Below are positions 38,266 through 38,800 of a stretch of DNA of 43,496 nt, piece after piece (position 1 is the stretch's first letter; every line of letters starts with the position of its first letter). A model generated the notes under the pieces. The model was not told where the DNA came from, did not search any database, and saw nothing but the letters and a program-made list of their open reading frames with translations. The translations under genes were made by a program, and so were the position numbers. Source of the DNA: a virus (Duplodnaviria; Heunggongvirae; Uroviricota; Caudoviricetes); IMG/VR virus record IMGVR_UViG_2718218360_000017, one strand, 5' to 3'.

Positions 38266-38624
38266 CCACTATTACCAAAGAACGTATCGAATTATTCATT
38301 AAAAATCCGCTTGATAACGGGCTTACCCGTGGCGAACAAATGGAACTGGCACGAATTGCGCTGGCATCACTGGAAGCCGAACCGGTTGCAGTAAACGACG
38401 ACATGGCTTACGCATTCCATCACGCATTGTCAGATTCATCGCTAGGCGCTGATGAAGTAGAGGAAATTAAGGCCGGTTTGCGTGCTGCCTTTGCCAACGT
38501 CACTATCCAACCAGAGCCGGTAGTGCCGGATGAAATCGATCCAGACGATAGCAATACGTTTGATTATGTTGATGGCTGGAACGCCTGCCGCGCTGCCATG
38601 CTTCAGGGTAAGGGAGGTGAGTAA
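38262..38624 (+). CDS. Acidic early protein, paralog A of a duplicated family
   Basis: MTTITKER..ELARIALASLEAEP..VVPD..GWNACRAAMLQG; paralogous to 39499..39870. Confidence 0.55.
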   Translation: MTTITKERIELFIKNPLDNGLTRGEQMELARIALASLEAEPVAVNDDMAYAFHHALSDSSLGADEVEEIKAGLRAAFANVTIQPEPVVPDEIDPDDSNTFDYVDGWNACRAAMLQGKGGE

Positions 38625-38800
38625 TGCGTGTGGCATTTTTCGGCTTGTTACCGTACCCGACTCGTTTTTGGGCTTCTGCGCTAATTGCAAAGCCACATGT
38701 CCTGATGGCTGACAACATCATCCCGGCACCAAAGCGCCGCCATACCGGTATTGCAGCGGCACGACGAGCAGCAAAGAGACGCAGGAGAGCAAAGCGATGA
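38624..38800 (+). CDS. Candidate 58-aa protein with Arg-rich C-terminus (..APKRRHTGIAAARRAAKRRRRAKR)
   Basis: Hand translation, no in-frame stops; ATG overlaps the upstream stop (TAATG) and its stop overlaps the next ATG (ATGA); below the track cut-off. Confidence 0.35.
   Translation: MRVAFFGLLPYPTRFWASALIAKPHVLMADNIIPAPKRRHTGIAAARRAAKRRRRAKR

What the first reader, a model, noticed from the sequence alone, without database searches (positions are those of the whole stretch)
38624..38800. Unannotated 58-aa ORF with an arginine-rich C-terminus, translationally coupled on both sides
The ORF is below the track cut-off but has no in-frame stops, starts at an ATG overlapping the upstream stop (TAATG) and ends with a TGA overlapping the next ATG. 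Its C-terminus (KRRHTGIAAARRAAKRRRRAKR) resembles arginine-rich RNA- or DNA-binding motifs. It may be an overlooked early regulator, possibly antitermination- or anti-defence-related.
Basis: seen in the sequence. Interest (0 to 1): 0.45.

Follow-up and report, generated by a model that had tools for sequence, protein, structure and literature searches.

The report
Conserved small basic-tailed phage early protein
The 58-codon ORF is a real, selected small gene of the little-understood "exo-xis" early region of lambda-like and Shiga-toxin phages, already catalogued as a hypothetical protein; its defining feature is a near-invariant arginine/alanine helix at the C-terminus whose function is still unknown.

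Summary
ORF 38624-38800 (+) encodes 58 aa, starts in a TAATG overlap behind a strong Shine-Dalgarno, and ends in an ATGA overlap with the next gene.

It is a genuine gene. All 56 distinct intact alleles from more than 180 related loci keep the frame, and every length difference between them is a multiple of 3. Tree-based dN/dS is 0.38 overall and 0.23 in the tail. Between sub-families the tail's synonymous sites are near saturation (pS 0.6-0.9) while the peptide is unchanged (pN 0-0.03).

It is not new as a sequence. PGAP calls it WP_001261587.1, it matches phrog_13831 over its full length, and the exact protein is on at least 1000 contigs. It is nevertheless missing from the classic 933W and VT2-Sakai records.

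It belongs to a family of 50-80-aa phage proteins found in Escherichia, Salmonella, Enterobacter, Klebsiella, Citrobacter and Vitreoscilla. These have variable hydrophobic N-termini and the C-terminal motif TG(I/V)AAARRAAKKRRR, predicted as a helix at pLDDT 84-88.

Antitermination is not: 933W carries this ORF and also has its own N gene and nutL. Anti-defence could not be tested.

My best guess is a trans-acting basic helix that docks on nucleic acid or an acidic host target. That is inference only.

The parts
38262..38624 (+). Upstream 120-aa ORF (phrog_5117/phrog_60-like; paralogue of 39499-39870). Its last codons K-G-G-E-stop carry the Shine-Dalgarno of the small ORF.
   Evidence: PGAP calls only its first 126 nt, as a partial pseudogene.
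38610..38623 (+). Junction and ribosome-binding site AAGGGAGGTGAGTA (GGAGG at 38613-38617). Homology to most related phages begins exactly here, so it is a mosaic module boundary.
   Evidence: alignments start at query position 187 = window 38610. (SD conserved in all 34 alleles).
38624..38800 (+). The 58-codon ORF plus TGA stop. Full-length member of phrog_13831; identical to RefSeq WP_001261587.1.
38624..38743 (+). Codons 1-40: variable, hydrophobic, proline-containing N-terminal region with semi-conserved LLPYPxRFW and (I/Y)P-x-P-K-R-R. Weaker purifying selection (omega about 0.44). Low AlphaFold confidence.
38744..38797 (+). Codons 41-58: conserved C-terminal motif TGIAAARRAAKRRRRAKR, predicted alpha-helix (pLDDT 84-88). 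Strong purifying selection on the peptide.
38780..38788 (+). Codons CGC-AGG-AGA (Arg53-55). They contain the AGGAG Shine-Dalgarno (38783-38787) of the downstream gene. Invariant even at synonymous sites in all enterobacterial sub-families, so doubly constrained.
38797..38985 (+). Downstream 62-aa basic ORF (phrog_1380), whose start overlaps the small ORF's stop (ATGA). It is the syntenic partner in the window's sub-family only.

Best explanation
Shown (confidence about 0.9 or higher): 38624-38800 is a genuine protein-coding gene of the early-left 'exo-xis' accessory region of a lambdoid prophage, immediately downstream of the ea22 homologue. It has no promoter or terminator of its own and is read as part of the long early operon. 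Its Shine-Dalgarno lies in the last codons of the upstream gene, and its own last Arg codons (AGG AGA) form the Shine-Dalgarno of the next gene. Both junctions are 1-4-nt stop/start overlaps. It belongs to a family of 50-80-aa phage proteins (phrog_13831, phrog_8108 and relatives). These have a fast-evolving hydrophobic N-terminal segment and a near-invariant C-terminal motif (K/R)(K/R)-TG(I/V)AAA(R/K)R(A/E)AKKRRR-x-(K/R), which always ends the protein.

Inferred (confidence about 0.35-0.4): the product acts in trans. The C-terminal 18 residues form one basic helix with a face of small alanines, and this helix is the functional element. It docks onto a polyanionic target, most likely RNA or DNA and otherwise an acidic host protein surface. 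The variable hydrophobic N-region supplies a second, lineage-specific contact. The expected biological effect is modulation of host or phage physiology early after infection or induction, as reported for other exo-xis genes. It is not N-type antitermination.
For: Gene reality:
- The frame is intact in 72 of 75 distinct segments, giving 56 distinct intact alleles of 54-60 codons. All length differences are multiples of 3, the start is ATG or GTG, and the SD is conserved.
- Other frames are closed.
- Parsimony-on-tree counts: 130.5 synonymous vs 135.5 non-synonymous changes, omega 0.38, P=1e-14. The tail has omega 0.23, P=6e-10.
- Window vs L108: pS 0.38, pN 0.05.
- Between sub-families the tail has pS 0.6-0.9 with pN 0-0.03, and L191 encodes the same peptide with different codons.
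- Full-length phrog_13831 match at 2.7e-39.

Operon placement:
- Synteny ea22-like gene, then this ORF, then the 62-aa gene holds in P22-like, lambda-like and Stx phages.
- No promoter, terminator, Rfam family or stable RNA fold.

Family and motif:
-.

Basic helix:
- AlphaFold helix at residues 40-57, pLDDT 84-88, with the rest at 51-59.
- Net charge +12 over 22 residues.
- Invariant G42, A44-46, R48, A50, R53-54 argue for a specific interface rather than generic charge.

Against a membrane anchor:
- Median KD19 is 1.0-1.4 in every sub-group and apolar runs are 7-15 residues.

Exo-xis genes are early and affect the lysis/lysogeny decision (PMC7093339, PMC8614690).
Against: - No homology to any characterised nucleic-acid-binding family. 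Binding is inferred from composition and a predicted helix only.
- No expression data were found.
- A 1-nt deletion allele that replaces the tail with an acidic read-through is common (P0077), and several other truncated or frameshifted forms exist. The gene is therefore dispensable in resident prophages.
- The N-terminal region evolves fast (omega about 0.44, with nearly equal change at all three codon positions).
- Some sub-families have signal-peptide-like N-termini, which fits a membrane or envelope role better.
- Part of the tail's DNA conservation comes from the embedded Shine-Dalgarno of the next gene.
Confidence: 0.4

Rival explanations
1. Small envelope- or membrane-targeted protein. 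The hydrophobic N-terminus is a signal-anchor or signal peptide, and the polybasic tail stays on the cytoplasmic face by the positive-inside rule. There it would modulate a membrane protein, or perturb the membrane as a toxin, lysis-timing or exclusion factor. This is the architecture of RmpD and of type I toxins.
For: - The Enterobacter/Klebsiella/Citrobacter sub-group begins MKRTSIALAVMAGTLASVKSW (n-region, 13-15-residue h-region, small residues), and other members look similar.
- The Vitreoscilla member sits directly after, and overlaps, an Amidase_3 endolysin gene in a Mu-like prophage.
- The Salmonella member lies about 0.5 kb upstream of a holin-endolysin cassette.
- Known small proteins with an N-terminal TM and a basic cytosolic C-terminus exist (RmpD; PMC12648545).
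Against: - In the window's own sub-family, KD19 maxima are 0.9-1.7 (median 1.24) and the longest apolar run is 8-12 residues, broken by conserved Pro, Arg, Lys and His. That is too short for a transmembrane helix.
- An AXA-type cleavage site is not conserved between sub-groups.
- The tail's non-polar face is alanine, not large hydrophobics, so it is unlikely to insert into lipid.
- AlphaFold gives no confident N-terminal helix.
Confidence: 0.25
2. Mainly a cis-acting coupling or leader ORF. Its role would be to deliver or pause ribosomes at the ATGA junction so that the next gene is translated. The conserved C-terminal peptide might then act inside the ribosome tunnel (SecM/MifM-like logic), not as a free protein.
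For: - Stop/start overlap with the downstream gene is found in every sub-family, whatever the downstream gene is.
- The last Arg codons are the next gene's Shine-Dalgarno and are frozen at synonymous sites.
- The conserved element always sits at the extreme C-terminus, 17-19 residues from T41 to the end.
- The architecture of a hydrophobic N-terminus plus a conserved C-terminus resembles monitoring substrates. That resemblance comes from my own knowledge and is a lead only.
Against: - There is no SD-sequestering RNA structure. The region folds worse than shuffles (z=+1.4).
- The downstream gene has a normally spaced SD of its own.
- Downstream genes differ between sub-families (62-aa ORF, TraR/DksA zinc finger, unknowns), unlike dedicated leader peptides.
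- Residues 20 or more positions from the stop, and the N-terminal LLPYPxRFW motif, are also under purifying selection.
- Poly-Arg/Ala is not a known bacterial arrest motif.
Confidence: 0.12
3. N-like, ARM-mediated transcription antiterminator or terminator (lambda N / HK022 Nun type) that binds a boxB-like RNA hairpin.
For: - Ala/Arg-rich helical composition resembles arginine-rich motifs (my own knowledge; compositional only).
- The window has no obvious N-like ORF between the repressor gene and the first early-left gene.
Against: - No Pfam or NCBIfam hit at E<=1.
- The motif is C-terminal, and there is no room for NusA- or RNAP-binding regions in 58 aa.
- The gene lies about 3.6 kb downstream of the repressor gene (34343-34996).
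- 933W carries the ORF together with its own N and nutL about 5.4 kb upstream.
- Family members occur in Mu-like and other non-lambdoid contexts.
Confidence: 0.03
4. Not a functional gene: a chance ORF, a decaying remnant, or the shadow of a gene on the opposite strand.
For: - The antisense frame that shares wobble positions is open in 54 of 56 alleles, with similar pN/pS (0.52 vs 0.49) and similar replacement scores.
- Frameshifted and truncated alleles exist.
- AlphaFold confidence is low overall.
Against: - The antisense ORF has no conserved start, varies from 7 to 93 aa, has no SD and crosses the mosaic boundary. Similar pN/pS is geometrically expected for that frame.
- The plus frame has a conserved SD, an ATG or GTG start, and stop/start coupling.
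- The peptide is conserved across saturated synonymous sites and across genera.
Confidence: 0.03

Closest known systems
PHROG families phrog_13831 and phrog_8108 (unknown function); RefSeq WP_001261587.1; UniProt A0A376WPN6
   Same: Full-length HMM match (1-58 of 58, E=2.7e-39), and an identical protein is already in RefSeq and UniProt. The tail also matches phrog_8108, and remote sub-groups bridge the two families.
   Different: Nothing differs. This is where the ORF belongs. Neither family has a name, function, structure or publication.
Other small exo-xis region proteins of lambda and Stx phages (Orf60a, Orf61, Orf63, Orf73/TraR-like, Ea8.5, Ea22)
   Same: Same genomic habitat (between the recombination genes and xis/int, transcribed from pL), small size and non-essential accessory character. 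One sub-family of this ORF always overlaps the TraR/Orf73-type gene (PMC7093339, PMC8614690, PMC9239242).
   Different: No sequence relationship to any of them. Not mentioned in the exo-xis papers read, and no predicted globular fold.
Arginine-rich-motif (ARM) peptides: lambda/P22/phi21 N, HK022 Nun
   Same: A short Ala/Arg-rich helix in a phage early protein (compositional resemblance, from my own knowledge).
   Different: The motif is at the C-terminus rather than the N-terminus. There is no family hit, the operon position is different, and the ORF coexists with a true N gene in 933W.
Arginine-rich small proteins DUF1127 (YjiS, CcaF1), and RmpD-type small proteins with an N-terminal hydrophobic helix and a basic C-terminus
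   Same: Around 50-60 aa with a strongly basic segment, acting by binding a larger partner (PMC12648545).
   Different: No Pfam DUF1127 match at E<=1. The N-terminal segment of the window protein is too short and too interrupted for a TM helix. The host is a phage rather than a chromosome.

Membership tests
phrog_13831 (small phage protein, unknown function) | Full-length match to the family HMM | tested here: met
   E=2.7e-39, residues 1-58 aligned to profile positions 1-58 of 58.
Family defined here: C-terminal TG(I/V)AAARRAAKKRRR small phage proteins | 50-80 aa, motif at the extreme C-terminus, hydrophobic N-region, stop overlapping or abutting the next gene's start, phage early-region context | tested here: met
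   Motif profile, contexts, junctions.
Lambda N-type antiterminators | Sequence membership in an N family | tested here: not met
   0 Pfam families at E<=1 and 0 NCBIfam families.
Lambda N-type antiterminators | N-terminal ARM followed by NusA- and RNAP-interacting regions; gene immediately downstream of pL/nutL; one per phage | tested here: not met
   The basic motif occupies residues 37-58 of 58. 933W has N and nutL about 5.4 kb upstream of its copy of this ORF.
Lambda N-type antiterminators | Binding to a boxB RNA hairpin | not testable with these tools
   Needs a binding assay. No search for a partner hairpin was attempted.
DUF1127 arginine-rich small proteins | Pfam DUF1127 domain | tested here: not met
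   No Pfam hit at E<=1.
Single-pass small membrane proteins / type I toxins | An uninterrupted hydrophobic segment long enough to span the bilayer (about 18-20 residues; KD19 of at least about 1.6) | tested here: not met
   Window KD19 maximum is 1.16. The window-like group has median 1.24 and a longest apolar run of 8-12. The MKRTS-like group has runs of 15, which is signal-peptide-like and inconclusive for that sub-group.
Single-pass small membrane proteins / type I toxins | Antisense or overlapping sRNA antitoxin; own promoter | tested here: not met
   No promoter-like site, no Rfam hit and no stable structure.
Secretion-monitoring arrest peptides (SecM/MifM/VemP type) | Downstream gene's SD sequestered in a hairpin that is opened by the stalled ribosome; downstream gene is a fixed Sec or YidC component | tested here: not met
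   The fold is less stable than shuffles (z=+1.37). Downstream genes vary between sub-families.
Secretion-monitoring arrest peptides (SecM/MifM/VemP type) | Ribosome stalling on the conserved C-terminal peptide | not testable with these tools
   Needs toeprinting or Ribo-seq.

The most novel reading that the evidence does not exclude
The invariant C-terminal TGIAAARRAAKKRRR helix is a previously unrecognised phage effector module. It would be either a new class of RNA- or DNA-binding ARM, or a nascent-chain element that tunes translation of whatever gene is placed downstream. Lambdoid, P1-like and Mu-like phages would have spread it across Enterobacteriaceae and beyond by exchanging N-terminal 'adaptor' segments at conserved gene junctions.
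Probability: 0.12. Interest if true: 0.6.

Novelty: new member of a known kind. Interest (0 to 1): 0.3.

Why it matters
The exo-xis region of lambda and Shiga-toxin phages influences the lysis/lysogeny decision and hence toxin release, yet its gene inventory is incomplete. This ORF is missing from the reference 933W and VT2-Sakai annotations, where a long out-of-frame ORF is called instead, and from some PGAP records. Published deletion and expression studies of that region may therefore have altered or ignored a selected gene.

The work defines a cross-genus family with one sharply conserved 18-residue helix, which is a cheap and well-posed target for peptide-binding, CLIP and mutational experiments. 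The window copy itself is an ordinary member, identical to a protein already deposited on at least 1000 contigs, so the finding matters as an annotation and family-definition point, not as a surprise.

Tried and rejected
1. Antisense gene. The wobble-sharing minus frame is open with similar pN/pS. It was rejected because its start, length (7-93 aa) and RBS are not conserved.
2. RNA element. No Rfam hit at E<=1 apart from an unrelated weak ctRNA match at 40702-40740. The fold of 38700-38830 is weaker than shuffles. No promoters or terminators.
3. DNA-level conservation as the cause of the invariant tail. Rejected because synonymous sites are saturated between sub-families. The exception is CGC-AGG-AGA, which is the next gene's SD.
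4. Known families. Pfam, NCBIfam, PADLOC and PDB sequence searches all came back empty. The only PDB hit (a light-harvesting alpha subunit, E=1.2) is noise.
5. GTDB species-representative genomes. A peptide pattern and a DNA pattern both found nothing, so the family is carried by strain-variable prophages rather than by the representative genomes. The first viral scan failed because the alignment was too diverse.
6. Structure. Two AlphaFold runs gave pLDDT of about 65 with only the tail helix confident. A fold search was therefore not run, because it would be meaningless.
7. Literature. There were no papers containing the motif, and no mention of the ORF in the exo-xis papers read. Ribo-seq papers on EHEC were listed but not mined, since early-left genes are repressed in uninduced lysogens.
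8. Mapping CP027307 annotation onto the window upstream of about 35500. This was abandoned because the window differs there: yfdP and yfdQ are absent.

Full report
**1. Observation**

The window sequence and the mechanical ORF list confirm an ORF at 38624-38800 on the plus strand. It has 58 sense codons, translated MRVAFFGLLPYPTRFWASALIAKPHVLMADNIIPAPKRRHTGIAAARRAAKRRRRAKR. Its ATG (38624-38626) shares one base with the TAA stop (38622-38624) of a 120-aa ORF (38262-38624). Its TGA (38798-38800) overlaps the ATG (38797-38799) of a 62-aa ORF (38797-38985). A strong Shine-Dalgarno (GGAGG, 38613-38617) precedes the start by 6 nt.

An open 58-codon frame is not remarkable on its own. By my arithmetic about 6% of random stretches are open, and one search lists 54 ORFs of at least 30 aa in this 4.5-kb stretch. 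The case therefore has to rest on comparative evidence.

**2. Where it sits**

The window is a lambdoid prophage. The 901 bases around the ORF are 100% identical to chromosomes and ~95-kb plasmids of E. coli O111 and other strains.

In the RefSeq record CP027307 the surrounding genes are:
- yfdR-like, DUF4752 and ead/Ea22-like genes upstream;
- this ORF, annotated as WP_001261587.1, hypothetical protein;
- a 62-aa hypothetical gene, then a DUF551 gene and an HTH (excisionase-like) gene;
- a dGTPase-family gene and an oppositely oriented integrase next to yjjG.

This is the early-left operon, the 'exo-xis region' of the lambda literature (PMC7093339, PMC8614690). No promoter-like or terminator-like site, Rfam family or stable RNA structure lies in or around the ORF. 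It is therefore read as an internal cistron of a long operon.

Even so, the same ORF is absent from several records:
- the original 933W record, where it falls in the gap between L0069 (the ea22 homologue) and L0068;
- RefSeq VT2-Sakai, where a long out-of-frame 'orf8' is called instead;
- plasmid pMS6198C.

**3. Is it a gene?**

I collected about 190 related loci from viral contigs and from contigs encoding diverged homologues.

Module boundary. Homology to the window starts at window position ~38610 in nearly every locus, which is exactly at the Shine-Dalgarno. The ORF and its RBS therefore move between phages as a unit.

Frame integrity.
- Of 75 distinct homologous segments, 72 keep the frame. 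They give 56 distinct intact DNA alleles of 54-60 codons.
- The start codon is ATG or GTG, and the SD is conserved.
- All length differences are whole codons: +/-CAT, +/-AAG, a +2-codon variant, and a 7-codon in-frame deletion in 933W-type phages.
- Frames +2, +3, -1 and -3 contain stops in essentially all alleles.

Selection.
- Pairwise Nei-Gojobori values give, for example, window vs L108 pS 0.38 and pN 0.05.
- To avoid non-independent pairs I counted changes on a neighbour-joining tree by parsimony. There were 130.5 synonymous and 135.5 non-synonymous changes, giving omega 0.38 and binomial P=1e-14.
- The N-terminal 35 codons have omega 0.44 (P=3e-8). The 22-codon tail has omega 0.23 (P=6e-10).
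- Recombination will inflate both classes of change equally, so the ratio should hold.

Antisense control. The antisense frame that shares wobble positions is also open, with pN/pS 0.52, as geometry predicts. Its ORF has no conserved start, ranges from 7 to 93 aa, lacks an SD and crosses the mosaic boundary. I reject it.

Disrupted alleles do exist. The commonest (P0077, listed in over 100 index blocks) is a 1-nt deletion, CCGGCACC to CCGCACC. It swaps the basic tail for an acidic read-through. Others are truncations. The gene is therefore dispensable in resident prophages, as expected for an accessory gene.

**4. The family**

The protein matches phrog_13831 end to end (E=2.7e-39), and its tail also hits phrog_8108. 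It has no Pfam, NCBIfam, PADLOC or PDB relatives.

A word-indexed search found 85 clusters. An exhaustive profile search of 1.8 billion representatives found 18, and a second profile search found 228 clusters. All hits are 50-80 aa, all are 'hypothetical', and they come from Escherichia, Salmonella, Enterobacter, Klebsiella, Citrobacter and Vitreoscilla.

Sub-families have different N-termini, such as MRVAFFGLLPYPTRFW..., MQVAFVGLLPHPIRLW..., MRMGNCLLPYLVRFG... and MKRTSIALAVMAGTLASVKSW.... All converge on ...(Y/I)P-x-x-(K/R)(K/R)-T-G-(I/V)-A-A-A-(R/K)-R-(A/E)-A-K-K-R-R-R-x-(K/R). Nearly every motif position has 0.82-1.00 occupancy by a single residue, and the protein ends 17-19 residues after the Thr. 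PHROG scans show the sub-groups bridge phrog_13831 and phrog_8108.

Contexts are all phage early or accessory regions:
- after ea22 in P22-like, lambda-like and Stx phages;
- upstream of, and overlapping, a TraR/DksA-type zinc-finger gene (the lambda Orf73 class, PMC9239242) between dam and xis/int, in Enterobacter, Klebsiella and Citrobacter prophages;
- beside a primase/VapE gene;
- after the endolysin of a Mu-like Vitreoscilla prophage.

The downstream partner therefore varies, but the stop/start overlap with it is kept everywhere.

In complete E. coli genomes the ORF occurs in 453 of 5426 genomes. Of the 516 places, 220 are on plasmids of about 90-100 kb, which are P1-like phage-plasmids. 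The exact window protein is on at least 1000 contigs.

**5. What is conserved, peptide or DNA?**

Within close relatives the 3' third of the ORF looks frozen. Between sub-families, though, the 15 core tail codons differ at most synonymous sites (pS 0.62-0.89) while pN is 0-0.03 among the enterobacterial groups. L191 spells the same peptide with largely different codons. The peptide is the selected object.

There is one exception. The codons CGC-AGG-AGA (38780-38788, Arg53-55) never vary among the enterobacterial sub-families. They contain the AGGAG Shine-Dalgarno sited 8-10 nt before the downstream ATG, so this stretch is doubly constrained. That also explains the use of the rarest E. coli Arg codons here (codon rarity is from my own knowledge).

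**6. Structure and physical character**

AlphaFold with 17 sequences gave mean pLDDT 65.2, and with 53 sequences 64.5. Only the C-terminal helix becomes confident (residues 40-57, pLDDT 84-88), while residues 1-39 stay at 51-59. I did not run a fold search on such a model.

The protein has pI 12 and a tail charge of +12 over 22 residues. On a helical wheel (my own calculation) most of the alanines cluster on one face and the Arg and Lys residues cover the rest. The invariance of G42, A44-46, R48, A50 and R53-54 suggests a specific, tightly packed interface, not just bulk charge.

The N-terminal segment is hydrophobic but not a transmembrane helix. KD19 maxima have medians of 1.0-1.4 in every sub-group (1.16 in the window), and uninterrupted apolar runs are 7-15 residues. 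The MKRTS-like group does resemble a signal peptide.

**7. Mechanism**

Shown: this is a conserved, selected small CDS with tight translational coupling on both sides, in an early accessory operon, and a C-terminal basic helix is its conserved element.

Inferred best explanation (about 0.35-0.4): the product is a trans-acting small protein. Its Ala/Arg helix docks on a polyanionic target, either nucleic acid or an acidic host protein surface. The variable hydrophobic N-region gives a second, lineage-specific contact. The expected outcome is modulation of early host or phage physiology, like other exo-xis genes.

Rivals:
- A membrane- or envelope-targeted small protein (0.25). It is favoured by the signal-like sub-groups and by the lysis-cassette neighbours in two distant members. 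It is disfavoured by the hydropathy of the window's own sub-family.
- A mainly cis-acting coupling or leader ORF (0.12). It is favoured by the universal stop/start overlap and the embedded SD. It is disfavoured by the lack of an SD-sequestering structure, the variable downstream genes, and selection along the whole peptide.
- An N-like antiterminator (0.03). There is no family hit, the motif is C-terminal, and 933W has this ORF plus its own N and nutL.
- Not a gene (0.03).

**8. Comparison with the known, and novelty**

The ORF is a member of phrog_13831 and is identical to an existing RefSeq and UniProt hypothetical protein. It is not a member of the N, DUF1127, type I toxin or arrest-peptide families, because each fails at least one tested defining feature (see the membership table). 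Functionally it most resembles ARM-type or other basic-helix small proteins, but only by composition.

No paper in the searchable library contains the motif, and the exo-xis papers I read do not mention the ORF. I rate it a new member of a known kind: small accessory early proteins of lambdoid phages. The sequence is already catalogued.

What is added here:
- evidence of selection on the frame and on the tail peptide;
- a cross-genus family definition by a C-terminal motif;
- the dual-coding SD;
- the note that reference Stx-phage annotations miss the ORF.

Interest is modest (0.3). It would rise only if the tail turned out to be a new nucleic-acid-binding or nascent-chain regulatory module.

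Noticed in passing
window 38797-38985; L081 1674-1850: The downstream 62-aa ORF (phrog_1380) is also very basic and carries CxxC-x12-H, with a weak zf-C2H2_jaz hit (E=0.096). In many phages a second 58-aa basic ORF with the same MKNRKAK start is inserted between it and the finding's ORF. The insert is bounded by a 21-nt repeat of window 38796-38816, which looks like a tandem duplication or junction-mediated insertion.
   Followed up: partly
window 38262-38624 and 39499-39870: These two ORFs (120 and 123 aa) are paralogues (MxTITKER...LARIALASLEAEP...GWNxCRxAMLQG; phrog_5117). PGAP annotates the first as a truncated pseudogene covering only 126 nt, although the ORF is intact and ends like its paralogue.
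   Followed up: partly
window 38044-38054, 38610-38624, 38974-38989: Genes in this operon end in K-G-(G)-E-stop, i.e. AAGGAG(GT)GA plus stop. The C-terminal codons therefore double as the Shine-Dalgarno of the next gene. Homology breakpoints between phages fall exactly at these junctions, which may act as recombination linkers for gene-cassette shuffling.
   Followed up: partly
window 40675-41901: A dGTP triphosphohydrolase-family gene sits between the HTH/excisionase-like gene (40229-40444) and the oppositely oriented integrase (42273-43496). This position is typical of prophage cargo or defence genes.
   Followed up: no
window 34996-35503: There is no convincing N-like ORF between the LexA/CI-type repressor gene (34343-34996) and the first early-left gene (yfdR-like, 35503-36066). 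The window also lacks the yfdP and yfdQ genes present at this place in CP027307.
   Followed up: partly
E. coli genome hits H11, H16-H20, H82 (plasmids of about 90-100 kb); phage records MH422554, MH445380: About 40% of the ORF's copies in complete E. coli genomes are on P1-like phage-plasmids. There the whole ea22 / small-ORF / 62-aa block is inserted, so the cassette moves between lambdoid and P1-like elements.
   Followed up: partly
L199 (VT2-Sakai NC_000902) 674-1141; L189 (933W) 3338-3841: The reference Stx2-phage annotations call a long ORF (orf8, 155-167 aa) that overlaps the end of ea22 out of frame and runs into the 62-aa gene. It is probably a mis-call that hides both small genes.
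   Followed up: partly
L192 6001-6168 (Vitreoscilla Mu-like prophage); L085 2501-3628 (Salmonella-type metagenome contig): Distant family members lie directly after an Amidase_3 endolysin gene, or a few hundred bases upstream of a holin-endolysin cassette. This may hint at an envelope or lysis connection for part of the family.
   Followed up: no
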